DNA of 64,000 nucleotides. Origin: Candidatus Woesearchaeota archaeon (GTDB taxonomy: Archaea > Nanobdellota > Nanobdellia > Woesearchaeales > GW2011-AR9). The stretch spans positions 10,089 to 74,088 of the forward strand of contig JABJOX010000004.1 of the NCBI GenBank assembly GCA_018664115.1. Direction: 5' to 3'. Below are positions 4,569 to 33,575 of this stretch, piece after piece; the stretch's first letter is position 1; each line of letters begins with the position of its first letter. Position numbers and translations under genes: made by a program. The notes under the pieces were generated by a model, which saw only the letters and a list, made by a program, of their open reading frames with translations, did no database searches and was not told where the DNA came from.

Positions 4569-4686
4569 TAATGGACGGCCATAGGGGCGCGGTTCACCTG
4601 TTCCCATTTCGAACACAGAAGTTAAGAGTGCCTCCGTACCGGGGTGTACTGCGTTTTTGCGCGGGAAATCCAGTAAGCTGTCCACT
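4569..4686 (+). rRNA. rrf: 5S ribosomal RNA (about 118 nt), stand-alone
   Basis: Sequence ggacggccataggggcgcggttcacctgttcccatttcgaacacagaagttaagagtgcctccgtaccggggtgtactgcg...gctgtccact. It carries the universal 5S loop motifs (CCCATTTCGAAC...GAAGTTAAG...GTACTG) and 5'/3' end complementarity (helix I). Confidence 0.85.
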
Positions 4687-7257: not shown

Positions 7258-7259
7258 AA

Positions 7260-13853: not shown

Positions 13854-15035
13854 ATGCGAAGATCCTATCTTAATTTGTTGAAATACTATTTTATTAAAAA
13901 TCCTAAAACCCCTATCCAATTAATTCATTTTGTAACTTCAAAATGCAATGCTAAATGTAAACATTGTTTTTTTTGGAGTAAACTTAATTCTAAAGATGAA
14001 TTATCTTTAGAAGAGATAGATAAATTTAGTAAAAGTTTACCTGATTTGATTATTTTAAACATAAGCGGCGGTGAACCTTTTATTCGTCAAGACTTTGCAG
14101 AAATAATAAAAACTTATTATCGTAATACTCCGGTTAAAGAAGTAGCTGTTCCGACTAATGGTACTTTTACAAGTAAAATTGTAAAAGATTGTATTGACAT
14201 TTTAGAAAATTGTCCTGATTTAAATTTAAATGTGGTTATTTCTCTTGACGGCCCTGAAAATATTCATGATGAGATTAGGCAAGTTAATGATTGTTTTAAT
14301 ATGGCAATTAAAACTTTTAATGAATTAAAATTATTACAAAAAAAATATTCTCACCTGCAACTTTCAGTAATTTCAACTTTAACTTCTATTAATCAGGATA
14401 AATTAGAAGAATTCCATAGTTATGTTAAAAATGTAATGAAACCAGATGTTTTTGGGCTAAATTTAATTAGGGGAGAAGCAAGGGTGATGAATTTATTTGG
14501 AGTTGACTTAAATAAGTATAAACTTTTTTTCCAACTTCAATCTAAATCTTCTAAAAAAGGAATTAAATCTATAATTAGAGATTATATGAATAAATTAAGA
14601 ACTGGAATGATAATAAAGACTATAGAAAATAAAAAATTTATCATTCCTTGTAAAGCAGGAAGTTTGATGGCGGTAATATATGAACAAGGAGAGGTATATC
14701 CTTGTGAACTTTTAAATAATAAATCTTTAGGTAATATTAAAGATTTCAATTATAATTTTAAGAAATTATGGGCGTCACAAAAAACTAAAGAGACTTGTAA
14801 GTTTATTAGAGAGACAAAATGTTATTGTACCCATGAATGTTTTCAGAGGTTTAATATTATTTATAATCCAAAATTTATCACTAAACATGCTAGTAAAGCA
14901 ATATTCAGAAAATCAAAAATAATTAATGCTCTTAAAATCAATTATGAAGAGAAAAATAATCAGCAAGAGATGGTTGAAATAGGACAATTAAGAGGAGTAA
15001 GACATGATTACAAAGAAAATTACAAAGAAAAATAG
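13854..15035 (+). CDS. Radical SAM protein with C-terminal SPASM/twitch-like Cys cluster
   Basis: FVTSKCNAKCKHCFF (CxxxCxxC) plus downstream Cys-rich stretch CKAG...PCELL...CKF...CYCTHECF. Confidence 0.75.
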   Translation: MRRSYLNLLKYYFIKNPKTPIQLIHFVTSKCNAKCKHCFFWSKLNSKDELSLEEIDKFSKSLPDLIILNISGGEPFIRQDFAEIIKTYYRNTPVKEVAVPTNGTFTSKIVKDCIDILENCPDLNLNVVISLDGPENIHDEIRQVNDCFNMAIKTFNELKLLQKKYSHLQLSVISTLTSINQDKLEEFHSYVKNVMKPDVFGLNLIRGEARVMNLFGVDLNKYKLFFQLQSKSSKKGIKSIIRDYMNKLRTGMIIKTIENKKFIIPCKAGSLMAVIYEQGEVYPCELLNNKSLGNIKDFNYNFKKLWASQKTKETCKFIRETKCYCTHECFQRFNIIYNPKFITKHASKAIFRKSKIINALKINYEEKNNQQEMVEIGQLRGVRHDYKENYKEK

Positions 15036-15101: not shown

Positions 15102-16019
15102 ATGTCTCTGATTATAATAATCTTTATAAATTACCTATTAATCATAACACTAATGTTACATAAACTTATGAATAAATATAATCGGTTTTCATTATTTCGT
15201 TATTTATATCATGGTTTTTTCCGGTTGTACTGTGATCATGTTAGTGATTACGTGATGATATCTTTTCCTAAAAGTGGCCATACTTGGTTAAGAGTTATGC
15301 TTGCCAAAGCATTTTCACTTCATTATGGTCTTTCTTCTCTTAATCTTGATCTTATTTTAATGGCAAAAGAAAAAAAAGGGATTCCAAAAATTGCTATTTA
15401 TCATGAAATATCTCCATTATTCTCAGTTAACTTCAGTTTAAAAAATAAAAAATTTTTGGGTTCATACGCAGAATCTGAAAAGGTTTTCATACGCACTCCT
15501 CTTAAAAAGAAAAAAATTATTTTTCTTGTACGAGACCCCAGAGATGTTGTAGTGTCGTTATTTTTTCATTTGACAAAGCGAAACAATTTTTATTTTAGAA
15601 ATGAGATGTCTCATTTTCTTAAAGAACCATTTAGTCTTACTAAAATCTTAAATTATATGAATCTTTGGTGTAAGGAAATGCAACGACGCCCAAATGAATT
15701 TTTATTTATTCGTTATGAGGATATGAAAACAAATACTGCAGAACAGTTAAGAAGAGTATTAGATTTCTTGGAAATAAATGTATCATATGATATTTTGAAT
15801 GAAGCTGTTGCTTTTGGTTCAATTGATAACATGCGTAAGATGGAAAAATGCAATTTGTTTGCCGATTATCGTTTGCAAGCAAAAAATCCAAGTGATCCTG
15901 AATCTTATAAAGTAAGAAAAGCTAAAGTGGGTGGTTATACTGATTATTTAAATCCTCAAGACTTGGAATATATAAATTTACGAATAAGTAAAGAGCTAAA
16001 TTCTGTATTTGGATATTAA
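15102..16019 (+). CDS. PAPS-dependent sulfotransferase with N-terminal membrane anchor
   Basis: 5'-PSB motif ISFPKSGHTWL (PKSGTTW-like) and 3'-PB motif VRDPRDVVVS (RDPxDxxVS). Hydrophobic N-terminus MSLIIIIFINYLLIITLML. Confidence 0.8.
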   Translation: MSLIIIIFINYLLIITLMLHKLMNKYNRFSLFRYLYHGFFRLYCDHVSDYVMISFPKSGHTWLRVMLAKAFSLHYGLSSLNLDLILMAKEKKGIPKIAIYHEISPLFSVNFSLKNKKFLGSYAESEKVFIRTPLKKKKIIFLVRDPRDVVVSLFFHLTKRNNFYFRNEMSHFLKEPFSLTKILNYMNLWCKEMQRRPNEFLFIRYEDMKTNTAEQLRRVLDFLEINVSYDILNEAVAFGSIDNMRKMEKCNLFADYRLQAKNPSDPESYKVRKAKVGGYTDYLNPQDLEYINLRISKELNSVFGY

Positions 16020-18895: not shown

Positions 18896-19615
18896 ATGGA
18901 TCAAAAAAAACATATTATAACTATAGATGGTTCAGGTTGGACTGGCAAATCTTCTACTGCAAAAGCATTAGCAAGAATTCTTAACTTTAAGCATATTAAT
19001 ACAGGCTCAATGTTTAGGGCTGTAGCTTGGAAAGCAAAACAATTAGGTGTTTTATTAGAAGACAATCAGGAAATAATAAAAATTACTAAAAATATGGTGA
19101 TTAACTTTAGAATAGAAAATAATTCTCAGCAGATTTTTGTTGATGGAGAAAATATAACTGCATTTTTATTATCTTCTTCATTGGTACCTTTAGCAGGAAA
19201 AGTTGCTCAAATTCCCGAAGTAAGAAAAGTTCTTTTGGAGCTTCAAAGGAAAATGGCAAAGGAAGGAAATGCTATCTTCGAAGGAAGAGACATGGGAACA
19301 GTTGTTTTTCCTAATGCTGATTGGAAATTTTATCTTGAAGCGTCTGTGCCTATTAAGATTAAAAGATTTCTGAAGATGCTTTCAAATGAAGAAAAAAATA
19401 AATATACTCTTGAAGAAGTAAAAAAGATAATAGAAGAAACAGACGAAAAGGATAAAAATAGAGAATTTGCTCCATTAAGAAAACCAAACAACGCAATCTT
19501 TTATGATAATAGTGAAAGTCCAACCCCTGAACAAGATGCAATTGTATTATGGTATTATATCACCCATCAAAAAGAAATTATTGATAATGCTTTAATTTTA
19601 CAATCTAGATTATGA
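18896..19615 (+). CDS. cmk: Cytidylate kinase (bacterial-type CMP kinase)
   Basis: ITIDGSGWTGKSSTAKALARILNFKHINTGSMFRAVAWKA. This matches the Cmk N-terminus pattern IDGPxGxGKxT...LDTGAMYRAVA. Confidence 0.75.
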   Translation: MDQKKHIITIDGSGWTGKSSTAKALARILNFKHINTGSMFRAVAWKAKQLGVLLEDNQEIIKITKNMVINFRIENNSQQIFVDGENITAFLLSSSLVPLAGKVAQIPEVRKVLLELQRKMAKEGNAIFEGRDMGTVVFPNADWKFYLEASVPIKIKRFLKMLSNEEKNKYTLEEVKKIIEETDEKDKNREFAPLRKPNNAIFYDNSESPTPEQDAIVLWYYITHQKEIIDNALILQSRL

Positions 19616-20328
19616 ATGAAACAAAAACATTAACAACAAAAGAACTTAGAGTTAAAGGAAGAAAAAAATGCTGGAGTCCATCCCAACGTTTTTGGATGGA
19701 AGTTTCTCTTTATTTAACTACACCGTTCTTAAGAACTTCCATTACTCCTAATATGATTACTGTTACTTGGATTATTTTAGAGATTTTTGCATTTTATCTT
19801 TTTACTTTGGGCGAATATTGGATTAATGTTCTAGCTGTAATTTTGTTCAATTTTATTGCATTAATTGGGGATCATATTGATGGTAATCTTGCAAGGATGA
19901 AAGAAAAGTTCAGTTTACTGGGACCTTATTTAGAGCAGTTAGGAATTTTCTTTGGTACACCTTTAATTTTTCTAGGATTAGCGATTGGAAATTATTTTCG
20001 TTATCAAAATTTTCTTTTTTTAATAATTAGTCTTGTAGGGGTATTGTTTTGGCTCTTTGAGAAGATTATTAGAATAAATCCTGTTTGGTTCAGTGAGAGG
20101 CAAGAAGAAATAGTAAAGAAGTTTTACGTTAAAGCATCATTTAGATCCGCTTCAAAGACAAGAATATTTTTTGAGATATTTCGTAGAGGGCAACCTTTTA
20201 ATTTCCTTTTCTTTTGTGTTGTTTTTGATTATACTCAACTTGCATCTTTGGTATATTCTTTTCTTTTCCTTTTTGAGTTTTGTAGAAAACTTTATATTAA
20301 TATAAAGAATCTAAATAAAAAAGTGTAA
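19612..20328 (+). CDS. CDP-alcohol phosphatidyltransferase-like integral membrane protein (divergent motif)
   Basis: GDHIDGNLAR...LLGPYLEQLG fits the D-x2-D-G-x2-A-R part of the CDP-OH phosphotransferase signature. Multi-TM, 238 aa, ATGA overlap with cmk. Confidence 0.5.
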   Translation: MNETKTLTTKELRVKGRKKCWSPSQRFWMEVSLYLTTPFLRTSITPNMITVTWIILEIFAFYLFTLGEYWINVLAVILFNFIALIGDHIDGNLARMKEKFSLLGPYLEQLGIFFGTPLIFLGLAIGNYFRYQNFLFLIISLVGVLFWLFEKIIRINPVWFSERQEEIVKKFYVKASFRSASKTRIFFEIFRRGQPFNFLFFCVVFDYTQLASLVYSFLFLFEFCRKLYINIKNLNKKV

Positions 20329-20385: not shown

Positions 20386-21108
20386 TTAAAAATCGTCTAC
20401 TTGTGAAAATACAGATTTTTCATTAGCAATATATTGGGTAATTATTTTTCTTACTAGTTCTAGAAAAAAGAATAAAGTATAGAGGATTAATGTGTAGTTT
20501 GGGTATCCAAAAACAACTCCCCAAAACAAAATATTGAAAAAGTGTTCTAGTCTAAATAGGGCAAAAACATTATAAATTAGTTTATGTTGGAATCTTAAAA
20601 GAGACTTTTTCCCAGTATCACTAATTAAGTTTCTTTGTTCTTTTGGATACCACATTGGATTAAGCGTTATTGCTTTATTCAGTAAAAAGAATATTACTGC
20701 TAAGATTCCGTAGAGCAAGTAAATTGCATTATTATACCACCGAAATACTCCAATTGAAAATGTAAGTAATAAAATTGAGTTGGCAAGATAGTGACCAAGC
20801 TGATCAAGGTAAATTCCATTAATGGAAAATTGTTTTCTATAACGGGCAACAATGCCATCACTACAATCTATAATAAAGAATGCTTGAAAAAATATAAGGG
20901 AGATAATCATAGTTAATTGATCTCCTGTTGCTAGAAATAATGCCGAAATTATTTGTCCAATAATCCATATTATTGTAATTTGATTCGGAGTTAAAGGAGT
21001 ATAAAGAAATAACTTTGCTGGATAATAAGCTAAATTATTCATCAACCGATAAATTGGGTCTCCTCTCTTTGCATTTGCTTTTTCTTTAAGCTCACGAATC
21101 GTCGGCAT
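20386..21108 (-). CDS. CDP-alcohol phosphatidyltransferase-like integral membrane protein (paralog, convergent)
   Basis: IIDCSDGIVARYRKQFSINGIYLDQLG gives D-x2-D-G-x2-A-R...G-x3-D. Multi-TM, 240 aa. Confidence 0.55.
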   Translation of the reverse strand: MPTIRELKEKANAKRGDPIYRLMNNLAYYPAKLFLYTPLTPNQITIIWIIGQIISALFLATGDQLTMIISLIFFQAFFIIDCSDGIVARYRKQFSINGIYLDQLGHYLANSILLLTFSIGVFRWYNNAIYLLYGILAVIFFLLNKAITLNPMWYPKEQRNLISDTGKKSLLRFQHKLIYNVFALFRLEHFFNILFWGVVFGYPNYTLILYTLFFFLELVRKIITQYIANEKSVFSQVDDF

Positions 21109-21176: not shown

Positions 21177-23978
21177 TTATTGTCCTTTTAAGAATAATAT
21201 TAATTGATTAACACTTTCATTTAAACTAATTTGTTGGGTTTCTAACTTTATGTCTGGACTATCTGGAATTTCATAAGGATTACTTTCTGCAACACCAATA
21301 AAATTATTAATTTCTCCGGCTAATGCTTTTTTGTAAAGTCCTTTCGTATCCCGCCTGATACATTCATCTAAGGAAGCATTGATGAATAGTTCTTTGAAGT
21401 TTTCTCCAACAATTAAACGGACCATCGTCCGATCTTCTTTGTAAGGAGAAATTATTGGTACTAAAACAAAATCATTATTTGCTGCTCTTTCTTTAGCTAA
21501 TTCCGCAATCAAACGATTATTTTCTCTTATATCCTCTCTAGAGAATCCAAGATCTTTGTGTAACGTATCTCTAACAACATCACCATCAAGAATTTCAACT
21601 TTATTTCCAAGACTTTCAAGTTTCTTTTTAAGTTCTAAAGCAATTGTTGTCTTTCCAGATCCAGACAAGCCTGTAAACCAGATTACTTTTCCTTCTTTGT
21701 TAGATATGTTATTTATTTTATTATATTCATTATTTTCATTTGGCTCAACTTTCTTCATTTCTTCTCTAACAAAAACTTCTTCTCCATTTTTAATACTTTC
21801 AACAATTAAACTGGAGACTTCTGGACGCATAAACCACTCTGGTGGAACTTGACCCAATTCAAATCTTTTTCTTGCTTCTGTTCCACTAATATGAAGCGGT
21901 TCTAACTCTTCGCCACTCTCCGTTTCTTTTTCGTGGACATGATGATTCAATTTATCCGAGTAGAATACTTTTCCATATTTTATAGGCTTAATCCCGATTT
22001 CAGGAAACTTATCAAAGATTTGATGCGAAGCATTAGGATGGTAGTAATCGCCTACACCTGTATGATCTCTCCCAACAATAAAATGGCTACACCCAAAATT
22101 TTTCCTGCAGAGAGCAGTAAATATAGCTTCTCTGGGACCAGCATAACGTGAGAATGTTGAAAATGTTGAAAATACTACTTTATTTTTTGGATAAATATTT
22201 TTCATCATTTCTTCATAACTTTTAATTATAAATTTAGAATTATAATCCCCAACTTTCTTTTTCCCAATAATGGGGTGAACAAATAATCCATCACAATTTT
22301 CTTTTTTCATTGCATCTAATTGAATGAACTCATGACCGCGATGAATAACATTTCTAGTATGGAAACCCACTATTTTAACCCACCCTCGATCTTCAAATAA
22401 TTTTCTGACTTGCTTTGGAGTTAGTTCATATTCTTTATGTTCAGATTCTCTTCTTTTAATCAAATTAATTTTTCCTCCAAGCAAAACAGGTTTCATATTA
22501 AAGACTATTTTTGCCCCAGGATGATTTTTATCATCAGTACAATACAATTTACTGATTACTTCTTCTTTATCATAATTATACTTTTCTTTAACTTTCATCG
22601 TTGCAACAATTTCATTCTTATCATTGGTTAAAATAATAGTTTCATCTAAATCAATTTGACTAGCAATCTCTTCAGAAACATCTAAAGTTACTGGTAATGG
22701 CCATACAACCCCATTTTTAAGTTTCATATGATCTAAGATCCCTTGAAAATCTTCTTTACCCATAAAACCTTCAATCGGACTAAATGTCCCAATAGCTATC
22801 TGTTCTACATCCATTAATTGTTCAGCATTCAATTTAATCTTTTTTAAAGAGTTTACATTTTCTGGAATCTCTTTGACAAATCTTTCAACTAATTTTCCTC
22901 CGTGTGGTTCAATTAAAGAACTAGTTTGAGAATTATCAGAGAGGTATTCATGATGGCTAATATTCTCAATATCATCGACATACTTTGAATGTTCAATCAG
23001 TTTATTTAACATATTAACACATTCCATTGGGTTTTCACCAATGGCTGTTTCTGCAGAAAGGATTAACCCACTTGCTCCGTCAATTATTGTATTTATTACA
23101 TCATTAACTTCTGCCCTAGTTGGTTTTTTATTAACAATCATAGATTCTAAAAGATTAGTTGCAATATATACAGGAGTATTTCTTTCTTTGGCTTTTTTAA
23201 GAATAATCTTTTGAATCAGAGGTATTTTTTCAATGGGGACTTCTTTACTCATATCTCCCCGATCCATCAATACAGCATCAGATTTCTCAATAATTTTATC
23301 AATGTCATGTAGTGATTCTTCTGCTTCAACTTTAGAAATAATATACATAGCATTATTAGTTACTTTCCTAACTTCATCAAGATCTTGGCTTTTTCTGACA
23401 AAGGACAAAGCTAAATGGCCAATCCCCTCTTCTAGCCCAATATTGATTGATTGTTTATCCTTTTCAGATAATACTGGTAAATGATAAACTTTATTGTTTC
23501 CAGGACTAACAATTACTGCTTTATTGTTTCCTAAATTACCTTCAGTCATTATTCTTGCAGAAATGTATCCCTCTTTAATAGTTGAAATATCAGAAATTTT
23601 AAGTATTAATGTATCAAAATCTACAAAAAGTAAATCACCTGTCTCTAATTGTTCTAAAATGTGCCCTGGAGTTAAACAGATCTCTTTTTTGTTTCCTATA
23701 ATTTTATTGCCATAAATTTTAATAATCTCGCCTTCATTATAATGGATGATTTTCTCCTCTAAATCACCAGTTCTTATTTGTGACCCCTCTGTATCAATAA
23801 TAAATGGAATATCAACTTTCTTTGCAATTTTAATGAAATATCTCAAGTCTTCAATACTAGAATGAGACATATTAATTCTAACAAAATCTACGCCCTTATC
23901 TTTTATTTTTTTCAAATCTTCTTCAGTATTTGTTGCTGGACCTAAAGTAACAATAATCTTAACATTTTTTTCTTCCAC
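21177..23978 (-). CDS. Tri-domain protein: pyruvate-kinase-like TIM-barrel domain + ATP sulfurylase + APS kinase (PAPS synthase with N-terminal PK-like module)
   Basis: N-terminal: KIIVTLGPATNT...VRINMSHSS...DTEGSQIRTG...ISKVEAEES...MDRGDMS...IATNLLESM (PK barrel motifs, no C-terminal regulatory domain). Middle: LIEPHGGKLV...GFHTRNVIHRGHE...GRDHTGVG...ISGTEARK (ATP sulfurylase). C-terminal: VIWFTGLSGSGKTTIA...ILDGDVVR (APS kinase P-loop). Confidence 0.85.
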   Translation of the reverse strand: MEEKNVKIIVTLGPATNTEEDLKKIKDKGVDFVRINMSHSSIEDLRYFIKIAKKVDIPFIIDTEGSQIRTGDLEEKIIHYNEGEIIKIYGNKIIGNKKEICLTPGHILEQLETGDLLFVDFDTLILKISDISTIKEGYISARIMTEGNLGNNKAVIVSPGNNKVYHLPVLSEKDKQSINIGLEEGIGHLALSFVRKSQDLDEVRKVTNNAMYIISKVEAEESLHDIDKIIEKSDAVLMDRGDMSKEVPIEKIPLIQKIILKKAKERNTPVYIATNLLESMIVNKKPTRAEVNDVINTIIDGASGLILSAETAIGENPMECVNMLNKLIEHSKYVDDIENISHHEYLSDNSQTSSLIEPHGGKLVERFVKEIPENVNSLKKIKLNAEQLMDVEQIAIGTFSPIEGFMGKEDFQGILDHMKLKNGVVWPLPVTLDVSEEIASQIDLDETIILTNDKNEIVATMKVKEKYNYDKEEVISKLYCTDDKNHPGAKIVFNMKPVLLGGKINLIKRRESEHKEYELTPKQVRKLFEDRGWVKIVGFHTRNVIHRGHEFIQLDAMKKENCDGLFVHPIIGKKKVGDYNSKFIIKSYEEMMKNIYPKNKVVFSTFSTFSRYAGPREAIFTALCRKNFGCSHFIVGRDHTGVGDYYHPNASHQIFDKFPEIGIKPIKYGKVFYSDKLNHHVHEKETESGEELEPLHISGTEARKRFELGQVPPEWFMRPEVSSLIVESIKNGEEVFVREEMKKVEPNENNEYNKINNISNKEGKVIWFTGLSGSGKTTIALELKKKLESLGNKVEILDGDVVRDTLHKDLGFSREDIRENNRLIAELAKERAANNDFVLVPIISPYKEDRTMVRLIVGENFKELFINASLDECIRRDTKGLYKKALAGEINNFIGVAESNPYEIPDSPDIKLETQQISLNESVNQLILFLKGQ

Positions 23979-24092
23979 TTTTTTCCCTCTTAATTAGTAT
24001 TAAAATTCAGTGAAGAATTAGTTTAAAAACATTATGGAAGATAAGAATCAAAGATAGATTGCTCTGGTTTTTTTTATTTTCCTCCATTTTTT

Positions 24093-24794
24093 TCACTTCT
24101 CCCAAAACAATTCTCTATTTACAAAAGCTCTCACTAATTTATCATTAAAAGCAGTATCACCTAATTTTATTCTTTCTGGGTGCCAAGTTACTGCTGCAAT
24201 TGGATAATCCGGATGATAAGCAGCTTCTATTGTTTCATCACTAGAACAGACAGCAAACGCTTTTAATTGCGAAGATAATATTTCGGGAAGAATTGCTTGG
24301 TTATGATAGGAATTCACTAAAACTTTTTCCAAGCCAAAAAATTTTTTAGTTTGATCATCAGTTAAAATAACCTCATGTTCGGCGGCCACATGTTTAACTT
24401 GGCTGTTTGTTTCATCTTTTATACTTTGTAATAAACTACCAGCAAAATGAACATTAAGATAATGTAACCCCCGACAAATACCTAAGATAGGAAGTTTTTT
24501 TTCAATTGCGTAATCGACAATTGCTTTCTCAGTTCTCTCCCGATCTAATGACCATTTGTTAGGAAATTTCATTTCTTGTCCGTACAAGCTGGGATGGACT
24601 CCGTTACCTCCGGTTAGAATTACACCTTCAACACCTAACTCTTCTAAATATTCTGCTGGATTTTCTAAAGAATTAGGAATTGGCACTAAAGTAATTCCAA
24701 ATTTAGGATAATATTGAGTATATTCTGTTTCCAGGATATCAACTGTTCCACCATATTCTGTTTCCAGTTGTTTTGTAGTAATTGCAACTCTCAT
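24093..24794 (-). CDS. Class-I glutamine amidotransferase-like / peptidase C26 (gamma-glutamyl hydrolase-like)
   Basis: KKLPILGICRGLHYLNV (Cys nucleophile) and NSYHNQAI (His). Paralog of 9671-10378. Start is 2 nt after the stop of the 1515-aa gene. Confidence 0.7.
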   Translation of the reverse strand: MRVAITTKQLETEYGGTVDILETEYTQYYPKFGITLVPIPNSLENPAEYLEELGVEGVILTGGNGVHPSLYGQEMKFPNKWSLDRERTEKAIVDYAIEKKLPILGICRGLHYLNVHFAGSLLQSIKDETNSQVKHVAAEHEVILTDDQTKKFFGLEKVLVNSYHNQAILPEILSSQLKAFAVCSSDETIEAAYHPDYPIAAVTWHPERIKLGDTAFNDKLVRAFVNRELFWEK

Positions 24795-24795
24795 T

Positions 24796-27700
24796 TTAAT
24801 CTAATAAGTTCAAATCAATAAACTTTTTAATTTCTCCGTTTTCAGTCCATTTAAGTGCATTTTCATAATCTTCATTTGTGTCAAATTCCATCCATCCCCG
24901 TTGAATCTTATTAGCCATTACTGTCCATCCATTATCAATCCAACTTTGAAGAAGATTAGTCATATTAATTTTTCTTACTGGCTTCCCATCAATTAAAGGT
25001 GTATCCCAATGTGAAGCTTTGATTTTCCTCCAGTGTTCCAAGACTTTTGGAACAAAATTTTTAGAGATGAAAGTTAAACTTGCATCTCTGCCATGTAATC
25101 TAGCTTCGTCAATAACATTTTCCTCTCCAATCTCAATAATAGAACCGTCTGGATTTAAAGTACAAGATTCAGAATCTTCTTTCCAATCACCATTACGGGC
25201 GGTCCAATAATCTTTATAATCAACATCAATTGCCTTACTAAGACTGAAATTTTCTTCCATAATTTGTTTAATAACTTTTGGTTCATGAATTGTGTCTGCG
25301 TAAGCAATTAATATGTCGCTACTGCCATCAAATTCTGCTTCTGCACAGAACAAAGAAGCAACCATATTTGTATTTTCCCAATCAGGATTATTATAATATT
25401 TAATTCCTGGGAAATTTATCTTTTCTGCGTTGAAACCGCGGACAATAGAGATATCAGTAAGGCCGGCTTTTTGAAATGTTTCAATTTGTCTTTGGAGAAG
25501 CGGTTTTCCTGCTAAAGGCAGTAATCCTTTCGGAAGAATTTCTGTATATTTATGTAATCTAGAACCTCGTCCAGCAGCCAAAATTATTACTTTCATTTTT
25601 TTATTCTTTAGTGTTTCATTTTCTTTATCTTCTTTTTTTTCATTACCTTTCAAAGTAGTAATCGGTCTAACCTGCAATAAATGTAGTTCATTATTATAAT
25701 AACACCATTCGCATTCAATTTCTTTGCCATAATCTTGCCGTAAACTTTCTCCTAATTGAACTAACTCTTTAATCTCATCTTCGTTAAGCACTCTGCCAGT
25801 CTTTTTAGAAACTTCTAATGACCCATCCATAATATAGGAGTAAGCTTCCCTTTCTTCATTAATTATATTAGCTTCAATTTCACTCCCATTGATAAAATAT
25901 TGATCAGGTTTGACTTTACCGGATACCACCGATTCACCAACACCAAAATTTGCATCAATCCAAATTCCTTCTTTCAAACTATCGCTAGGGTTTTGTGAGA
26001 ACAAAACCCCTGCTTTTTCACTTTGCAGAAATTCTTGTATAACAACAGAAATGTAAAACTTTTCTTGACTTATTCCTGATTGGTGAGCATAAAGCAAAAC
26101 ATTTTCTTTAAATGCAGAAGCAATACATTCTTTAATTGCTGAAAACAAGCTTTTTTCTTCTATTCCTAAGAGGGTCTTGAATTGGCCAGCAAAACTTGCT
26201 TTACTAGAATCTTCACTAGAGGCTGAACTTCTTACTGCTACCGCTTTTGTGTTTAATTGTTTAAACTGACCCAAAACTTCATTCTTGAATTCGTCGCTAA
26301 ATTGATAATCATTCACAAACTTTCGTAATGCTTTTAATTTTTCTTGTGATTGTTCTGGATAATTAAAATCAATGATGTAATCTTCTTTGTCGTTTAAGAA
26401 TGAATTAATAATTTGGTCATAAGCTCTTCTTGTTACGCTAAACGCTTTTGGAACATTATATCTCATCGAACATTTGGCAAGATTCTTTCCTTTCCCCCCT
26501 ACCAAAGAATATTCCTCTTCATTTATCTCATTTAGACTTGATGTGTATGGGATGCTTCTTAGAAAAAGACTTTTTTTAATTGTTATGAGGGGTTCTTTTT
26601 TATCTTCTGTTTTCTTTAAATCTATACCCTGAATATTTTTGGCTTTAAATTCTTCTGTTTCTCTTTTAGTTAATTTTCTAACAAATTTGTTATAAGTATC
26701 CACTTCAATAAAATCTCCTGTTTTAAAGAAACGTGTTGAGATTCTCGTTCCAACTAAACAAGGGATATTTAATTCTCTGGAAATAATTGCTGCGTGGCTG
26801 GTTATTCCACCTTCATCTGTAATTATTCCTTTAGTTTTGTGAAGAATGGAAACCATTGCTGGATGAGTCATTGTTGTAATATAAATGTCATCAGAGGTCA
26901 TTTCTTTTTTTGTTTTCATTAGCGATTTAATACTATCATCAGTTACTACTAAAGCTCTCCCTTTAACTCTTCCTAAATTTCCGACATCTCCACTTAACCC
27001 TTTAAGATTTTCTGGGATAGTATTAACTTCTTTTGAGTATTTTGGAATAAAGCTATACTCGGTAGATTCTGGGGATATTTCTATGTTAAAATATTGTAAT
27101 CTTTTCTTAACTTCTTCAGGAGTTAGTTTCTTATTTTCTTCTAAGAAATCTTTAACATCTTTTATCCTATAAGAAAACAAAAAGTCTTCAATATTCAGCT
27201 CTAATCTTTTTGCTATCTCTTTGAATAAACCTAAGAATAATAATTCATAACCTGCCCAGATATTTTTATTCTCTAACCTTATCAAAGCAATCTCTTGTAG
27301 ATAAAGGCATAGTTCTTTTAGTTTATTTGAACTTTGTCTGGCAAGACATTCTTCCTGTTTTTGCTTTAGAATCTTGCTTTCATTTATTGTTTTATTAATT
27401 TCATTTTCTAATTCTTGTGCATTAGTCTCGGAAATTTCGTTTTCTAAAAATTGATTGATAATTTCCCATGAATATGTGTTGATAAATCTCCAAGAATATT
27501 TTAATGCATACTCTTTAATGGCTTTTGGACCAACATTTATTTCCCTAATCAGTTTTAATTTGTCTTTTTTTTCTTTCAAAAATAAATCTTCTTTTGTTGG
27601 TGTTGTTAATAATTGTAATAACTCTTCTTTATTATCTGCAATAATCAAGGAAAGAATTCTGTCTTTTACTGCTTTTGTTGGTTCTTCTCGAGAGTATGGA

Positions 27701-29343
27701 AAGAATGAACCATTTTCCATCACTAAATTTATCAGTTGATTATAAATGGGAAATAGTTCTTTATTTGTTTTTAAAATATAATTGATATTTTTGTTTTTTT
27801 CATAAAATGAGAAAAACTTGGCGATTTGTTTTTTATTTTCTTCGACTACCTTTTCCTGTTCACTTTTATTGATTAATTTAAACCCTTCATAATTCCAGCG
27901 TTTAATATCTTCTTGATCAAAATAAACGGTGTGGTGTTTATCTCTAACTTCTGTAAAGATTTTCCCAATAATACTGTTACCAATTTGTTCCGGGAACATT
28001 ATGTATCTTAATGTGTGACATTCCAATGATTGTAATGATGTTGTTCCACCCCAACCATGGTATAAACTTGTAAATAAAGGTTTAACTTGAAAGATAATTA
28101 TTTCATTATTATTATCAATTACGAATTCAATCTTTAACTCTACTCTTGGAATTAATTCTTCAATTTCTTTTACTGCAAAGAATATTTGTTCGGCTTCTGG
28201 AAATAATTGAAACTCTCCTTTGAGTTTTACTTCCTCTAGATTCGAAACATTAATTGTCCCTTTACTTTCTTCTGCGATTGTTTCATCATTTTTACTTAGA
28301 GATGTGTAACTATAATTGATGATATATTTATTAGGATTATTTTTAATCAGGGCTGAACCTACCAGTTTAATATTGTTTGTTTGATTTTGCACCAATACTT
28401 GATGGAAAGAACTTTCTGGCGCTTTATTTTTATAAGAAGCGATGGTTTCATTAATTGCTTCTTCTACCTGAAGATTATCTTTTGGCTCTACATCCAACAA
28501 ACTTTTAAAACAACCACTTAACGTTCTTTCAGTCTGTTCATCAATTACAGAACTCCTAACCACAATTTTTTCTGGAAATTCTTCTTTAATTTTTTCCAAT
28601 ATTTGTTTTTTATCATTTTTCCAATCATTAATGGTAAAAGAAAACAGTTTTTCTACCTTTGATTTAGTTAAAATGGGTTGGAGTGTTTTTAATGTATCTG
28701 CTTTAGTTGAAATGATGTTTTTGTTTTTCCATTCTTTAGCAAAGTTTTCTTTTGTTTCATTATCCTCTTTATTTTCTTTAATTACTGAAGCAAAATGTTT
28801 AATATCCTTAAACTTATCTTTGTTTTCTAATAAGTAATTTATAATTTTAAAATTTGATAATCGTGAATAATAAGGGTGTTGTAATAATTTTCCACCAATA
28901 CTTTTAATGTACTCTGCTCCTGGAATATCTCCCCAGTTATCACCATGAATCAGAATTATTTCTGCATCTGGATATTCTTCATGGATTTTTTGCAGATTAT
29001 CTGTGGGGTCTCGATGATATTGAACTAAAACTCGATCTACAACTTTTAAATTTTCAATTACTGCTTTCCTTTCTTTTAAGTTTGAGATGGGCTTAACCCT
29101 ATATTCTTCCACTGCTTCATCAGTAAAAACCCCTATAATGTTATAATCAGAGACAGACTTAGCAAATTGGATAGACTGCAAATGCCCATAATGAAATAAA
29201 TCTCCTACTACTCCCACATAAGAGATCCGTTTAATTCCCGACTTTTTAATTTCTACATAATCTCCCTCTTGCATTTCAGAATTTTTAGGGATAGTTACAC
29301 ATAACTGATCATTAGATTTATTTTTCCATACAACTCTTTTCAT
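24796..29343 (-). CDS. Giant (1515 aa) multidomain enzyme: N-terminal HIGH-motif cytidylyltransferase + PEP-utilising phosphohistidine domain + PPDK/PEP-synthase ATP-grasp (PPDK_N) domain + MobA/GlmU-like NTP-transferase domain + uncharacterised C-terminal region
   Basis: N-terminal: VGVVGDLFHYGHLQSIQFAK (TagD/ECT-like HxGH). About aa 770-880: GLSGDVGNLGRVKGRALVV...GGITSHAAIISRELNIPCLVG (PEP-utilisers mobile domain). About aa 900-1150: VPKAFSVT...AVAVRSSASSEDSSKASFAGQFKT (PPDK_N hallmark). About aa 1200-1330: MKVIILAAGRGSRLHKYTEILPKGLLPLAGKPLL (NTP_transferase). Confidence 0.8.
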   Translation of the reverse strand: MKRVVWKNKSNDQLCVTIPKNSEMQEGDYVEIKKSGIKRISYVGVVGDLFHYGHLQSIQFAKSVSDYNIIGVFTDEAVEEYRVKPISNLKERKAVIENLKVVDRVLVQYHRDPTDNLQKIHEEYPDAEIILIHGDNWGDIPGAEYIKSIGGKLLQHPYYSRLSNFKIINYLLENKDKFKDIKHFASVIKENKEDNETKENFAKEWKNKNIISTKADTLKTLQPILTKSKVEKLFSFTINDWKNDKKQILEKIKEEFPEKIVVRSSVIDEQTERTLSGCFKSLLDVEPKDNLQVEEAINETIASYKNKAPESSFHQVLVQNQTNNIKLVGSALIKNNPNKYIINYSYTSLSKNDETIAEESKGTINVSNLEEVKLKGEFQLFPEAEQIFFAVKEIEELIPRVELKIEFVIDNNNEIIIFQVKPLFTSLYHGWGGTTSLQSLECHTLRYIMFPEQIGNSIIGKIFTEVRDKHHTVYFDQEDIKRWNYEGFKLINKSEQEKVVEENKKQIAKFFSFYEKNKNINYILKTNKELFPIYNQLINLVMENGSFFPYSREEPTKAVKDRILSLIIADNKEELLQLLTTPTKEDLFLKEKKDKLKLIREINVGPKAIKEYALKYSWRFINTYSWEIINQFLENEISETNAQELENEINKTINESKILKQKQEECLARQSSNKLKELCLYLQEIALIRLENKNIWAGYELLFLGLFKEIAKRLELNIEDFLFSYRIKDVKDFLEENKKLTPEEVKKRLQYFNIEISPESTEYSFIPKYSKEVNTIPENLKGLSGDVGNLGRVKGRALVVTDDSIKSLMKTKKEMTSDDIYITTMTHPAMVSILHKTKGIITDEGGITSHAAIISRELNIPCLVGTRISTRFFKTGDFIEVDTYNKFVRKLTKRETEEFKAKNIQGIDLKKTEDKKEPLITIKKSLFLRSIPYTSSLNEINEEEYSLVGGKGKNLAKCSMRYNVPKAFSVTRRAYDQIINSFLNDKEDYIIDFNYPEQSQEKLKALRKFVNDYQFSDEFKNEVLGQFKQLNTKAVAVRSSASSEDSSKASFAGQFKTLLGIEEKSLFSAIKECIASAFKENVLLYAHQSGISQEKFYISVVIQEFLQSEKAGVLFSQNPSDSLKEGIWIDANFGVGESVVSGKVKPDQYFINGSEIEANIINEEREAYSYIMDGSLEVSKKTGRVLNEDEIKELVQLGESLRQDYGKEIECEWCYYNNELHLLQVRPITTLKGNEKKEDKENETLKNKKMKVIILAAGRGSRLHKYTEILPKGLLPLAGKPLLQRQIETFQKAGLTDISIVRGFNAEKINFPGIKYYNNPDWENTNMVASLFCAEAEFDGSSDILIAYADTIHEPKVIKQIMEENFSLSKAIDVDYKDYWTARNGDWKEDSESCTLNPDGSIIEIGEENVIDEARLHGRDASLTFISKNFVPKVLEHWRKIKASHWDTPLIDGKPVRKINMTNLLQSWIDNGWTVMANKIQRGWMEFDTNEDYENALKWTENGEIKKFIDLNLLD

Positions 29344-32726: not shown

Positions 32727-33575
32727 ATGAAAGATATTATCGTTTTCACTCAGAATACAATGGCTTCTATAGTGGCTACAAGAGAAGTCTTAATAAATAA
32801 TTCAGACAGAATCAAAGCAATTGTCCTTGCCAGTCAATTTAAAGGAGAATCATTTACTGATCAACTAAAAGTTGCCTATAAACTTACAAAAAAATCTTCG
32901 TTTAGTTTTTTCTTTTACAAGTTATTAGAATCAAAAGTTTATAACTATCTTTTGTGGGGTCATAAATTAATAAAAACAAAAAATTATCAAAATGATTCTG
33001 CTAAAACTATTGAAGATCTCGCGGGCCAATATAATATTCCTATCATTAAAACAACCAACCTTAGTGATAATGATTTCTTAATTAACATTAAAGAATTAAA
33101 TCCAACATTTGTACTTTGTTTAGTGGCACAAATTTTGAGAAAGAATGTTTTTGAAACTCTTGGCAATAAGTTAATTAATGCTCATGGTTCTTATCTCCCA
33201 GAATATAGGGGTGCCGCTCAATATTTCTGGTATTTATTTAATGGGGATCGGCAATATGGGGTGACTGTTCATTTTATGGAAGCTGGATTGGATACTGGAG
33301 ATATTATTTTTCAAAGAAAATTTGATTATAATCAAAATGTCTCGATGTATGAATTACATCATAAATTAGCTACTTCATTTGGTTTTATGTTAAATGAGTT
33401 TATCAATAATTATGCTAATGACAATGACGACGATCATAATAATGAACTGATCTCATTTAAACAAGATGAAGAAAAAGCTACGATGACTAGGATGCCCACC
33501 AAAGAAGATTTTAGTCAGTTAAAGAAAAAAGGAAACAAGTTAATAACTTTTAAAGATTTTTTTAAATATATATAA
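32727..33575 (+). CDS. N10-formyl-THF-dependent formyltransferase (Fmt/ArnA-N/VioF-like sugar N-formyltransferase)
   Basis: Formyl_trans_N motifs: INAHGSYLPEYRGAA (H...SLLP..RG) and HFMEAGLDTGDII (catalytic Asp). Confidence 0.8.
   Translation: MKDIIVFTQNTMASIVATREVLINNSDRIKAIVLASQFKGESFTDQLKVAYKLTKKSSFSFFFYKLLESKVYNYLLWGHKLIKTKNYQNDSAKTIEDLAGQYNIPIIKTTNLSDNDFLINIKELNPTFVLCLVAQILRKNVFETLGNKLINAHGSYLPEYRGAAQYFWYLFNGDRQYGVTVHFMEAGLDTGDIIFQRKFDYNQNVSMYELHHKLATSFGFMLNEFINNYANDNDDDHNNELISFKQDEEKATMTRMPTKEDFSQLKKKGNKLITFKDFFKYI

What the first reader, a model, noticed from the sequence alone, without database searches (positions are those of the whole stretch)
21177..23978. Pyruvate-kinase-like domain fused to ATP sulfurylase and APS kinase (PAPS synthase with a PEP-linked module)
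The N-terminal 330 aa carry PK barrel motifs (TLGPAT, NMSHSS, DTEGSQIRTG, ISKVEAEES, MDRGD, ATNLLESM) but no C-terminal regulatory domain. Fused downstream are a complete ATP sulfurylase (HTRNVIHRGHE, GRDHTGVG) and an APS kinase (GLSGSGKTT). Sat-CysC fusions are well known, but I know of no PK-like N-terminal module on them. PEP + ADP to ATP could locally regenerate ATP and pull the unfavourable sulfurylase reaction. The nearby giant enzyme also uses PEP-family domains. The motif DTKGPEIR reads DTEGSQIR here (Lys to Glu), so the activity of this domain is uncertain.
Basis: partly seen in the sequence, partly recalled or inferred. Interest (0 to 1): 0.8.

Follow-up and report, generated by a model that had tools for sequence, protein, structure and literature searches.

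The report
Pyruvate-kinase-fused PAPS synthase for glycan sulfation
This archaeal gene joins a pyruvate-kinase-type module to the two enzymes that make the cell's activated sulfate donor (PAPS); it belongs to a large family, apparently undescribed in the literature, in which sulfate activation probably carries its own ATP-recharging unit.

Summary
Window 21177-23978 (-) is one 933-aa ORF with a PK barrel (aa 4-321, no PK C-domain), PUA_2 plus ATP sulfurylase (356-727) and an APS kinase (763-912). It is not an assembly artefact. More than 100 homologues share the layout, and at least 530 species genomes carry the PK subtype, in DPANN, CPR, Chloroflexota, Planctomycetota, Acidobacteriota, Nitrospinota and a cultured [Flexibacter]. 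The window is from a Woesearchaeota archaeon.

All known PK catalytic residues are invariant. The Lys-to-Glu change sits at RMPK position 114, which is not catalytic (the K114Q mutant has wild-type kcat). The PK domain belongs to a distinct clade with the signature DTEGSQIR / DRGD / ATNLLE / AAETAIG. This clade occurs fused to Sat, Sat-CysC or CysC, or standalone inside the same operons. Neighbours are sulfotransferases, APS kinases and CysQ within surface-glycan clusters.

Best reading: a PEP-driven PAPS synthase whose PK module converts the ADP made by APS kinase back to ATP. This is inferred, not assayed.

Novelty: a new variant of a known kind. I found no paper describing it, and pipelines label it either 'sulfate adenylyltransferase' or 'pyruvate kinase'.

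The parts
21177..23978 (-). Whole gene: 933-aa PK-Sat-CysC trifunctional protein (GTG start, TAA/stop included)
   Evidence: ORF list. Pfam and NCBIfam. 100%-identical protein P0001 and >100 homologues with the same layout. AF2 model mean pLDDT 88.7, pTM 0.72.
23984..23988 (-). Shine-Dalgarno-like GAGGG, 5 nt upstream of the GTG start
   Evidence: Read directly from the sequence.
23016..23969 (-). Pyruvate-kinase barrel (A domain plus inserted B 'lid' domain), aa 4-321. Catalytic residues: R34, N36, S38, D62, T63, R69, K153, K216, E218, D242, T274, S308, E310. Family-specific: E64, S66, Q67, D239, N275, A309, I313.
   Evidence: Pfam PF00224 241 bits. Alignment to PDB PKs 2e28/1pky. Conservation in 120 homologues. 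Signature clade. Mean pairwise identity 60% and 17% invariant columns, similar to the Sat catalytic domain.
22914..23015 (-). Poorly conserved linker between PK and Sat (aa 322-355). It replaces the PK C-terminal allosteric domain.
   Evidence: No Pfam hit. pLDDT 61-66 around aa 331-350. 31% mean pairwise identity and 0 invariant columns.
22452..22913 (-). PUA-like N-terminal domain of ATP sulfurylase (aa 356-509)
   Evidence: Pfam PF14306, E 1.2e-47.
21798..22433 (-). ATP sulfurylase catalytic domain (aa 516-727). The HTRNVIHRGHE motif (H540 in place of the usual Gln) and the GRDHTGVG loop (T640 in place of the usual Ala).
   Evidence: Pfam PF01747, E 3.9e-75. Best PDB relatives 2gks and 8a8d. 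H540 120/120 and T640 118/120 in the family. Role of the Gln/Ala positions in binding the APS sulfate from PMC3779200.
21693..21797 (-). Flexible linker between Sat and CysC (aa 728-762)
   Evidence: pLDDT below 50 for aa 741-760.
21243..21692 (-). APS kinase domain (aa 763-912): P-loop GLSGSGKTT, LDGDVVR, ISPY, KGLYKKA
   Evidence: Pfam PF01583, E 1.2e-50. TIGR00455 191.5 bits against cut-off 138.7. Motif conservation.
15102..16019 (+). Sulfotransferase (Sulfotransfer_1), the likely consumer of the PAPS, about 5 kb away in the same glycan island
   Evidence: Pfam PF00685, E 4.7e-28. A sulfotransferase lies within 6 kb of the fusion in 39 of 58 well-flanked loci. It is directly adjacent in L001, L002, L003, L088 and L089.

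Best explanation
The gene encodes a trifunctional, PEP-driven PAPS synthase of a Woesearchaeota (DPANN) archaeon. The Sat domain makes APS from ATP and sulfate. The CysC domain phosphorylates APS to PAPS and releases ADP. The N-terminal PK barrel, a dedicated non-allosteric PK subtype, uses PEP to convert that ADP back to ATP. The net reaction becomes sulfate + ATP + PEP -> PAPS + PPi + pyruvate. Removing ADP keeps APS kinase out of its E-ADP-APS dead-end complex, and through fast APS consumption it indirectly pulls the unfavourable sulfurylase equilibrium. The PAPS feeds sulfotransferases that decorate surface glycans or lipids encoded in the same island.

Shown here: the architecture, intact catalytic residues in all three modules, strong purifying selection on the PK domain, recurrence of the fusion, and a recurrent genomic link to APS kinase, sulfotransferase and CysQ. 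Inferred: that the PK domain actually turns over PEP and ADP, that the ATP/ADP exchange is local, and the identity of the sulfated acceptor.
For: Domain architecture with strong E-values.

PK active site: R34, N36, S38, D62, T63, R69, K153, K216, E218, D242, T274 and E310 are invariant or nearly so (117-120 of 120 homologues), aligned to solved PKs. The PK domain is as conserved as the Sat and CysC domains (60% vs 68% and 58% mean pairwise identity, against 31% for the linker). The Lys114 and Glu117 positions are known to be non-essential for catalysis.

Rosetta-stone pattern: the same PK clade is found as PK-Sat (81 of the top 150 representatives), PK-Sat-CysC, PK-CysC and standalone proteins of about 330 aa. 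Standalone genes sit in operons with Sat-CysC, APS kinase or sulfotransferase (L084, L087). All 129 signature-bearing domains form one NJ clade that excludes 15 canonical PKs, with fused and free forms interspersed.

Neighbourhoods: in 58 loci with at least 3 kb of flank on each side, 38 have an APS kinase (fused or within 6 kb), 39 a sulfotransferase, 15 a CysQ, and 52 at least one of these. In L008 and L027 the adjacent 'Sat-CysC' has a degenerate Sat, so PK-Sat is the active sulfurylase there.

Biochemical rationale: PAPSS1 made almost no PAPS in vitro unless PK/PEP removed ADP, because of the E-ADP-APS dead-end complex (PMC9885120).
Against: No enzymology exists for any family member.

The commonest fusion partner is Sat (which neither makes nor uses ADP), not CysC. 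That is not what a pure 'ADP scavenger for APS kinase' model predicts.

The PK clade carries fixed substitutions next to catalytic residues (K114E, P116S/A, E117Q, A292D, Q328N, G362A in RMPK numbering). Ser361 is only S/A 61/58. Altered specificity or kinetics therefore cannot be excluded.

Some carriers (Pacearchaeales) are reported to lack a glycolytic route to PEP (preprint 10.64898/2026.05.13.725050).

The Sat domain has changes at both sulfate-contacting positions (Q to H, A to T). Their effect is unknown.

No CysQ or sulfate transporter was found in this 64-kb window.
Confidence: 0.6

Rival explanations
1. Neo-functionalised PK-like module. The domain keeps the PK scaffold and the metal and phosphate ligands, but it no longer works as a general ADP-dependent pyruvate kinase. 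It might couple PEP cleavage directly to the sulfurylase step (a functional analogue of the CysN GTPase), use a different phosphoryl acceptor, or act as a PEP sensor that gates costly PAPS synthesis.
For: Clade-wide fixed substitutions flank catalytic residues: E64, S66, Q67, D239, N275, A309. The proposed proton-relay Ser361 is dispensable (S/A 61/58). The allosteric C-domain is lost. The core conserved partner is Sat rather than the ADP-producing CysC (81 PK-Sat vs 2 PK-CysC representatives). The Sat domain co-varies at both sulfate-contact positions (H540, T640).
Against: Every residue known to bind PEP, Mg2+, K+ and the nucleotide phosphates is retained. K114Q and E117 variants of bona fide PKs remain active. 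Pure sensor domains usually lose catalytic residues. A standalone member's partner Sat has NTRN rather than HTRN, so the Sat variant is not strictly tied to PK. No chemistry for direct coupling is known.
Confidence: 0.17
2. Housekeeping PK that happens to be fused. In reduced DPANN/CPR genomes this domain is the cell's only pyruvate kinase and serves general substrate-level ATP synthesis. The fusion to Sat-CysC would be incidental co-expression without mechanistic coupling.
For: Pipelines already call these proteins 'pyruvate kinase' (JGI names). Only 39/123 Woesearchaeales and 9/54 Pacearchaeales complete genomes have any K00873 hit, which is compatible with the fusion being the sole PK where present. 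PFOR, which consumes pyruvate, is encoded in the window (5518-8015).
Against: The same clade occurs in large-genome Chloroflexota, Acidobacteriota, Planctomycetota and a [Flexibacter] isolate, which are expected to have canonical PKs; I did not verify this here. The clade is specifically and repeatedly linked to Sat, CysC and sulfotransferase genes even when unfused. The repeated fusion and fission inside one clade argues for functional coupling.
Confidence: 0.1
3. In this particular lineage the CysC domain also, or instead, serves the upstream Cj1416-1418-like genes as the 3'-kinase of a CDP-phosphoramidate-type donor (the Cj1415 role). The PK domain, with its broad NDP tolerance, would then help regenerate ATP or CTP for that pathway.
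For: Directly upstream and co-oriented lie a GATase whose best NCBIfam hit is gamma-glutamyl-CDP-amidate hydrolase, and a 1515-aa protein with PRK05849-like/ATP-grasp, phospho-His and two nucleotidyltransferase modules. No other APS-kinase-like gene exists in the 64 kb. The gene order is conserved in the 89%-identical relative L088. Cytidylate kinase and two CDP-alcohol transferases are adjacent. Cj1415-1418 make CDP-phosphoramidate 3'-phosphate (PMC11800397). That Cj1415 is an APS-kinase homologue is from my own knowledge and was not verified here.
Against: The hydrolase hit is far below its cut-off (80 vs 250 bits). The CysC domain passes the APS-kinase equivalog cut-off. The association disappears in the 65%-identical relative, which instead has three sulfotransferase-like genes. 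The association is also absent from the 80 genome loci. A sulfotransferase is present in the window.
Confidence: 0.08
4. Artefact: two or three adjacent genes merged by a sequencing or assembly error.
Against: The ORF is continuous. An identical protein occurs in another assembly, and more than 100 homologues at 51-90% identity from NCBI, JGI, ENA and Logan have the same layout. 80 of 80 GTDB species loci show PK fused or adjacent.
Confidence: 0.01

Closest known systems
Bifunctional Sat/APS kinase of Aquifex aeolicus (PDB 2gks) and other Sat-CysC PAPS synthases
   Same: Same Sat (PUA_2 + catalytic) then CysC order. Best PDB match, 355 bits over both domains. RN, HxxH, GRD, P-loop and DGD motifs are present.
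   Different: An extra 320-aa PK barrel at the N-terminus. Gln of QXRN is replaced by His and Ala of GRDHAG by Thr. NF004040 scores 453.5, below its 669 equivalog cut-off.
Canonical pyruvate kinases (e.g. E. coli PykF 1pky, G. stearothermophilus 2e28, rabbit muscle PK)
   Same: Full A+B barrel, about 35-38% identity. All catalytic, Mg2+, K+ and phosphate ligands are conserved.
   Different: No C-terminal allosteric/tetramerisation domain. A separate clade with DTEGSQIR / DRGD / ATNLLE / AAETAIG in place of DTKGPEIR / ARGD / ATQMLE / SGETAKG. The K+-site signature T113/E114/Q117/T120 matches neither the K+-dependent (T/K/E/T) nor the K+-independent (L/Q/K/L) pattern.
CysDN(C) sulfate activation complex
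   Same: Another solution in which a second energy-releasing reaction (GTP hydrolysis by CysN) is physically joined to the unfavourable sulfurylase. CysN-CysC fusions exist (PDB 4bzp, listed). That GTP hydrolysis drives APS formation is established knowledge, not tested here.
   Different: Unrelated folds: PAPS-reductase-like CysD and EF-Tu-like CysN. The coupling there is conformational. Here the energy source would be PEP and the coupling is probably through nucleotide recycling. L002 and L059 carry CysD/CysN genes in the same locus as the PK fusion.
Engineered PAPS cascades with PK/PEP ATP regeneration
   Same: The same three activities combined for the same purpose. PK/PEP was required for PAPS accumulation (PMC9885120).
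   Different: Those are mixtures of separate enzymes in vitro. Here the combination is a natural single polypeptide.
Eukaryotic multi-domain PAPS synthases (human PAPSS1/2, CysC-Sat order)
   Same: Sat and APS kinase on one chain, supplying sulfotransferases (PDB 1x6v hit).
   Different: Opposite domain order and no PK module.

Membership tests
Pyruvate kinase (EC 2.7.1.40, Pfam PF00224 barrel + PF02887 C-domain) | PK (beta/alpha)8 barrel with inserted B domain | tested here: met
   PF00224 matched 2-328 of 328 positions, 241 bits. AF2 model shows a beta-rich insert at aa 68-158.
Pyruvate kinase (EC 2.7.1.40, Pfam PF00224 barrel + PF02887 C-domain) | Catalytic, metal and phosphate ligands (RMPK R72, N74, S76, D112, T113, R119, K206, K269, E271, D295, T327, E363) | tested here: met
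   All are present in the window protein and invariant or nearly so (117-120 of 120 homologues). S361 is present here (S308) but is S/A in the family.
Pyruvate kinase (EC 2.7.1.40, Pfam PF00224 barrel + PF02887 C-domain) | C-terminal alpha/beta (allosteric, tetramer-forming) domain | tested here: not met
   No PF02887 hit. The PK homology ends at about aa 330-345 and is followed by a non-conserved linker.
Pyruvate kinase (EC 2.7.1.40, Pfam PF00224 barrel + PF02887 C-domain) | Curated whole-protein score for the equivalog (TIGR01064) | tested here: not met
   285.3 bits against a cut-off of 306.4. The shortfall is consistent with the missing C-domain.
Pyruvate kinase (EC 2.7.1.40, Pfam PF00224 barrel + PF02887 C-domain) | PEP + ADP -> pyruvate + ATP activity | not testable with these tools
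   Requires enzymology.
Homo-oligomeric ATP sulfurylase (Sat; TIGR00339) | PUA-like N-domain plus catalytic domain, above the curated cut-off | tested here: met
   TIGR00339 365.7 vs 322.95. NF003166 427.7 vs 387.
Homo-oligomeric ATP sulfurylase (Sat; TIGR00339) | QXRNxxHxxH and GRD(H)AG substrate loops | tested here: inconclusive
   RN, HxxH and GRDH are present. The sulfate-contacting Gln is His (H540) and the Ala is Thr (T640), both fixed in the family. The functional consequence is unknown.
APS kinase (CysC; TIGR00455, PF01583) | P-loop, DGD, ISPY and KGLYKKA motifs, with score above the curated cut-off | tested here: met
   191.5 vs 138.7 bits. Motifs conserved in 76/76 CysC-bearing homologues.
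Bifunctional Sat/CysC (NF004040 equivalog) | Whole-protein equivalog score | tested here: not met
   453.5 vs cut-off 669. It works like one, but it is a separate lineage with an added domain.
Cytidine diphosphoramidate kinase (C. jejuni Cj1415-type) | Specificity for CDP-amidate and genomic association with Cj1416-1418 homologues | tested here: inconclusive
   Distant Cj1416-1418-like genes lie upstream here and in L088 but not in L089 or the other loci. No Cj1415 sequence or model was available for comparison.
PK-Sat fusion family (defined here) | PK-clade signature D[TS]EG[SA]Q[IVL]R, DRGD, ATNLLE[ST]M, [SA]AETA[IV]G, with N-terminal fusion to Sat | tested here: met
   DTEGSQIR, DRGD, ATNLLESM and SAETAIG are all present. 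The window protein clusters inside the signature clade.

The most novel reading that the evidence does not exclude
The PK-like clade is not a mere ATP recycler but a dedicated energy-coupling subunit of sulfate activation. It would use PEP cleavage, through direct nucleotide hand-over within a PK-Sat(-CysC) complex or through an altered acceptor, to drive APS/PAPS formation. That would make it a PEP-powered counterpart of the GTP-powered CysDN system, with co-evolved changes in the sulfurylase anion pocket (Q to H, A to T). A corollary is that many 'pyruvate kinase' calls in DPANN/CPR metabolic reconstructions are really this module.
Probability: 0.15. Interest if true: 0.85.

Novelty: new variant of a known kind. 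Interest (0 to 1): 0.62.

Why it matters
1. It would be a natural single-chain version of the PK/PEP-assisted PAPS cascades that biocatalysis groups assemble by hand. That makes it a ready-made, possibly superior catalyst for enzymatic sulfation.

2. It defines a large pyruvate-kinase clade that I found undescribed in the held literature: barrel only, non-allosteric, with an unusual monovalent-cation-site signature. Its biology is tied to sulfation rather than glycolysis.

3. It is a practical annotation trap. Pipelines name these proteins 'pyruvate kinase' or 'sulfate adenylyltransferase'. In streamlined DPANN/CPR genomes a lone K00873 hit is read as substrate-level phosphorylation capacity, and a recent Nanobdellota survey finds such hits puzzling. 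If they are PK-Sat fusions, energy-metabolism inferences for these symbionts need revisiting.

4. It indicates that sulfated surface glycans or lipids are a common, energetically prioritised feature of episymbiotic archaea and bacteria, which is relevant to host attachment.

Tried and rejected
Assembly or frameshift artefact: rejected.

Degenerate pseudo-PK: rejected, because all catalytic residues are invariant and domain conservation equals that of Sat and CysC.

Lys-to-Glu in DTKGPEIR as an inactivating change: rejected on published K114Q data.

CPR (Patescibacteria) origin of the window: this was my early assumption from named homologues. It was rejected because the HisRS is 100% identical to Woesearchaeota entries.

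General functional link between the fusion and the upstream giant enzyme plus GATase: the link is conserved only in the closest relative and the giant enzyme lacks a PEP-binding barrel. I kept it only as a low-probability lineage-specific rival.

HTRN/GRDHTG as a strict marker of PK association: not upheld, because the Sat partner of a standalone PK has NTRN.

Literature search for a prior description: five relevant queries (and the Nitrospinota paper) found none. The library is incomplete, so this is absence of evidence only.

The Taylor & Raushel 2018 Cj1415 paper could not be retrieved.

The AF2 model gives no coordinates or PAE through this interface, so I could not assess an inter-domain channel.
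Full report
**1. What is in the sequence**

Window 21177-23978 on the minus strand is a single 933-aa ORF with a GTG start. A GAGGG Shine-Dalgarno lies five bases upstream. Pfam finds four domains in order:
- PK barrel, aa 4-321, covering the whole model (241 bits)
- PUA_2, aa 356-509
- ATP-sulfurylase, aa 516-727
- APS_kinase, aa 763-912

No pyruvate-kinase C-terminal domain is present. NCBIfam places the Sat part above the sopT cut-off and the CysC part above the apsK cut-off. The PK part falls just short of the whole-protein PK cut-off, as expected without the C-domain. An AlphaFold2 model built on 64 family members is confident (mean pLDDT 88.7, pTM 0.72). Its low-confidence segments are a moderately weak PK-Sat linker (about aa 331-350, pLDDT 61-66), a dip in the late Sat domain (about aa 681-700, pLDDT 72-78) and a disordered Sat-CysC linker (aa 741-760).

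**2. The fusion is real and common**

A 100%-identical protein and more than 100 homologues at 51-90% identity, from NCBI, JGI, ENA and Logan assemblies, have the same layout. They are either about 930 aa (PK-Sat-CysC) or about 750 aa (PK-Sat).

Carriers include DPANN archaea, many CPR phyla, Chloroflexota, Planctomycetota, Omnitrophota, Acidobacteriota, Gemmatimonadota, Latescibacterota, Acidimicrobiia, Nitrospinota, Myxococcota, Bdellovibrionota and a cultured [Flexibacter] sp. ATCC 35103. Some NCBI titles in that list, such as 'uncultured Methanosarcinales' or 'Gammaproteobacteria', look like loose MAG labels, and I did not rely on them.

The window itself comes from a Candidatus Woesearchaeota archaeon: its histidyl-tRNA synthetase (48-1181) is 100% identical to NCBI entries of that name. 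This corrected my initial guess of a CPR bacterium.

**3. The PK module**

Alignment to solved PKs and conservation over 120 homologues show that every residue known to bind PEP, Mg2+, K+ and the nucleotide phosphates is present and invariant or nearly so (117-120 of 120). In rabbit-muscle (RMPK) numbering with window residues in brackets, these are R72 (R34), N74 (N36), S76 (S38), D112 (D62), T113 (T63), R119 (R69), K206 (K153), K269 (K216), E271 (E218), D295 (D242), T327 (T274) and E363 (E310). S361 is Ser here, but the family splits S/A 61/58.

The RMPK K114Q mutant has wild-type kcat and remains K+-dependent (PMC8835810). Position 117 (Gln here) carries Ser, Gln, Arg, Asn, Gly or Val in one crenarchaeal PK branch, and the characterised members of that branch (with Ser, Val or Arg) are active and K+-independent (PMC4374775). 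The window's T113/E114/Q117/T120 combination matches neither the classical K+-dependent nor the K+-independent signature, so cation dependence is open.

Across the three-domain family the PK domain is as constrained as the catalytic partners:

| Region | Mean pairwise identity | Invariant columns |
|---|---|---|
| PK barrel | 60% | 17% |
| Sat catalytic | 68% | 19% |
| CysC | 58% | 15% |
| PK-Sat linker | 31% | 0% |

**4. A distinct PK clade tied to sulfate activation**

I ran a whole-library phmmer search with the PK domain alone (1.84 billion representatives) and classified the top 150 locally. The result:
- 81 PK-Sat
- 3 PK-Sat-CysC
- 2 PK-CysC
- roughly 45 standalone PK barrels, mostly about 310-360 aa

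All of these carry the same signature: D[TS]EG[SA]Q[IVL]R, DRGD, ATNLLE[ST]M and [SA]AETA[IV]G. Canonical PKs (DTKGPEIR, ARGD, ATQMLESM, SGETAKG, about 470 aa) appear only at the bottom of the list, at about 35-38% identity.

In a neighbour-joining tree the 129 signature-type domains form one clade that excludes all 15 canonical PKs. Fused and free forms are interspersed within it. The tree is crude and has no bootstrap. This pattern implies repeated fusion or fission within a lineage that has long been coupled to sulfate activation.

Standalone members sit in the same operons. In L084 the order is PK, two genes, then Sat-CysC. In L087 it is sulfotransferase-like, PK, then APS kinase. A PK-CysC fusion lies beside a flippase, a CDP-alcohol transferase and a GT2.

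**5. Context**

In the homologous loci examined with precomputed Pfam, the recurrent core is sulfotransferase, the fusion, and an Inositol_P (CysQ-type PAP phosphatase). This core is embedded in glycan clusters with NeuB, NeuC-like epimerase, CMP-sugar synthetase, flippases, Wzy and GTs.

I clustered all flanking ORFs of 84 loci and built HMMs for the recurrent families. Of 58 loci with at least 3 kb of flank on each side:
- 38 have an APS kinase, fused or within 6 kb
- 39 have a sulfotransferase
- 15 have a CysQ
- 52 (90%) have at least one of these

In two Chloroflexota loci the adjacent 'Sat-CysC' has a degenerate sulfurylase: QTRN…HxxH reads QPHS…YRMD, and GRDH reads SRNH. There, PK-Sat is the active sulfurylase and the neighbour supplies the kinase.

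In the window itself a Sulfotransfer_1 gene lies 5 kb away (15102-16019). Around it are a flippase, methyltransferases, several GT2s, radical-SAM enzymes and sugar-nucleotide genes. No CysQ homologue was detected in the 64 kb.

**6. How it most likely works**

The Sat-CysC part is a PAPS synthase of the Aquifex type. The best PDB matches are 2gks and the M. thermolithotrophicus Sat 8a8d. The steps are:
- Sat: ATP + sulfate -> APS + PPi
- CysC: APS + ATP -> PAPS + ADP
- PK module (proposed): PEP + ADP -> pyruvate + ATP

The net reaction would be sulfate + ATP + PEP -> PAPS + PPi + pyruvate. The benefit is documented for the human enzyme in vitro. APS kinase forms a dead-end E-ADP-APS complex, and without PK/PEP almost no PAPS accumulated (PMC9885120).

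The pull on the unfavourable sulfurylase equilibrium is therefore indirect, through rapid APS consumption.

What is shown: the architecture, intact active sites, purifying selection and the genomic coupling. What is inferred: catalysis by the PK module, locality of the nucleotide exchange, and the acceptor of the sulfate.

**7. What does not fit neatly**

- The dominant partner of the PK clade is Sat, not the ADP-producing CysC.
- The clade has fixed substitutions adjacent to catalytic residues: K114E, P116S/A, E117Q, A292D, Q328N, G362A.
- Ser361 is dispensable in the family.
- The fused sulfurylases carry His for the Gln and Thr for the Ala whose side chain and backbone NH, respectively, hydrogen-bond the sulfate of APS in characterised enzymes (PMC3779200). 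In this family H540 is 120/120 and T640 is 118/120. In the genome loci, 74 and 73 of 82 fused Sats carry them.

These points leave room for a more specialised coupling or altered specificity (rival 1). However, the Sat partner of one standalone PK has Asn at the Gln position, so the Sat variant is not strictly tied to PK.

Some carriers (Pacearchaeales) are reported to lack glycolytic PEP formation (preprint 10.64898/2026.05.13.725050). Woesearchaeales nearly always have enolase (122/123), so PEP should be available to the organism of this window.

**8.

The 1515-aa protein upstream (24796-29343) combines these modules:
- a cytidylyltransferase-like module
- a PRK05849-like region
- a swivelling phospho-His domain
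- a PPDK_N ATP-grasp
- an NTP_transf_3 module

It lacks the PEP/pyruvate-binding barrel. It therefore resembles ATP-dependent phosphotransferases of the Rph/PigC type, and by my recollection Cj1418, rather than a PEP enzyme.

Between that protein and the fusion lies a GATase (24093-24794) whose best NCBIfam hit is gamma-glutamyl-CDP-amidate hydrolase (80 bits, cut-off 250). The pair is reminiscent of the C. jejuni Cj1416-1418 route to CDP-phosphoramidate 3'-phosphate (PMC11800397). The only APS-kinase-like domain in the window is the fusion's CysC.

The gene order is conserved in an 89%-identical relative. It is gone in a 65%-identical one, which instead has three sulfotransferase-like genes, and it is absent from the wider family. 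I treat this as a lineage-specific side issue and a low-probability rival.

**9. Comparison with what is known, and novelty**

The protein works like a Sat-CysC PAPS synthase plus a pyruvate kinase. It is a member of the Sat and CysC families by curated thresholds. It is not a full member of the PK equivalog (no C-domain, below cut-off, separate clade) or of the NF004040 bifunctional equivalog.

I found no paper describing a PK-Sat or PK-Sat-CysC fusion. The held library is incomplete, so this is not proof of absence. The sequences are abundant in public databases under the names 'sulfate adenylyltransferase' or 'pyruvate kinase'.

I rate it a new variant of a known kind. It is a large, coherent, unstudied family with a clear testable function, and its immediate practical consequence is for how 'pyruvate kinase' hits in reduced archaeal and bacterial genomes are read.

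**10. Verdict**

My confidence that this is a genuine three-domain PAPS-forming enzyme is about 0.9. My confidence that the PK module is an active PEP:ADP phosphotransferase recycling ADP for the module is about 0.6. Interest is 0.62.

Noticed in passing
window 24796-29343 (-) and 24093-24794 (-): A 1515-aa multi-domain protein (cytidylyltransferase-like + PRK05849-like + phospho-His swivel + PPDK_N ATP-grasp + NTP_transf_3, with no PEP-binding barrel) sits with a Peptidase_C26 GATase whose best NCBIfam hit is gamma-glutamyl-CDP-amidate hydrolase. Together they resemble a fused version of the C. jejuni Cj1416-1418 phosphoramidate-donor pathway, here in a Woesearchaeote. The only APS-kinase-like (Cj1415-like) domain in the 64 kb is the CysC domain of the fusion.
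   Followed up: partly
window 48-1181 (+): The histidyl-tRNA synthetase is 100% identical to NCBI 'Candidatus Woesearchaeota archaeon' proteins, so the window is DPANN archaeal and not CPR. The ORF as listed (377 aa, TTG start) is shorter than the 426-aa database proteins because it runs off the window start.
   Followed up: yes
window 19612-20328 (+) and 20386-21108 (-); also L004, L014, L026, L030, L051, L085, L087, L088: CDP-alcohol phosphatidyltransferase paralogues recur next to PK-Sat or PK-CysC genes, mostly in DPANN loci. A cytidylate kinase (18896-19615) sits beside them here. This hints at a CDP-activated head group, or a sulfated phospholipid or glycan target.
   Followed up: partly
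L003 12274-12876; L022, L026, L030, L058: In several DPANN loci the gene right after PK-Sat is a 200-aa AAA_33/Zeta-toxin-like P-loop kinase rather than a PF01583 APS kinase. It is a candidate non-orthologous APS kinase.
   Followed up: partly
L004 12197-13654; L021 15003-16361; L067 12243-13574: Further fusions occur inside the same sulfation module: CysC-sulfotransferase, CysC-CysQ and CysQ-CysC.
   Followed up: no
L008 14072-15784; L027 2819-4516: Chloroflexota 'Sat-CysC' genes next to PK-Sat have a degenerate sulfurylase domain (QPHS…YRMD, SRNH). By my recollection this resembles the inactive Sat-like domain on the Thiobacillus denitrificans APS kinase (PDB 3cr8).
   Followed up: partly
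L002 3048-5897 and 9397-9972; L059 796-3617: Some loci carry a CysD/CysN-type sulfurylase, a PAPS-reductase-like gene and a standalone APS kinase beside the PK-Sat(-CysC) fusion. That places two sulfate-activation systems in one cluster.
   Followed up: no
window 30367-31803 (-), 32727-33575 (+): A 5-formyl-THF cyclo-ligase is fused to FolD (dehydrogenase/cyclohydrolase), near a formyltransferase and GT2s. This suggests N-formylated sugars in the same glycan island.
   Followed up: no
protein names; preprint 10.64898/2026.05.13.725050: JGI names several PK-Sat fusions 'pyruvate kinase'. A 2026 survey reports K00873 in only 39/123 Woesearchaeales and 9/54 Pacearchaeales and regards the latter as unexplained. 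These hits may be this fusion. Its near-universal 'PEP synthase' (K01007) calls might likewise include ATP-grasp/phospho-His proteins like the giant enzyme here.
   Followed up: partly
window 4571-4686 (+): An isolated 5S rRNA gene with no 23S or 16S in the 64 kb, and no tRNA genes anywhere in the window.
   Followed up: no
window 9671-10378 (+), 11438-12907 (+), 13854-15035 (+): A second Peptidase_C26/GATase paralogue (weak hit to the same CDP-amidate hydrolase model), a B12-binding radical-SAM enzyme and a SPASM radical-SAM enzyme lie within the glycan island. B12-radical-SAM genes also recur near the fusion in 6 other loci (cluster 20).
   Followed up: no
L065 (NZ_MTQF01000013.1, [Flexibacter] sp. 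ATCC 35103): A cultured, publicly available strain carries a full PK-Sat-CysC gene, which gives a tractable system for genetics and biochemistry.
   Followed up: no
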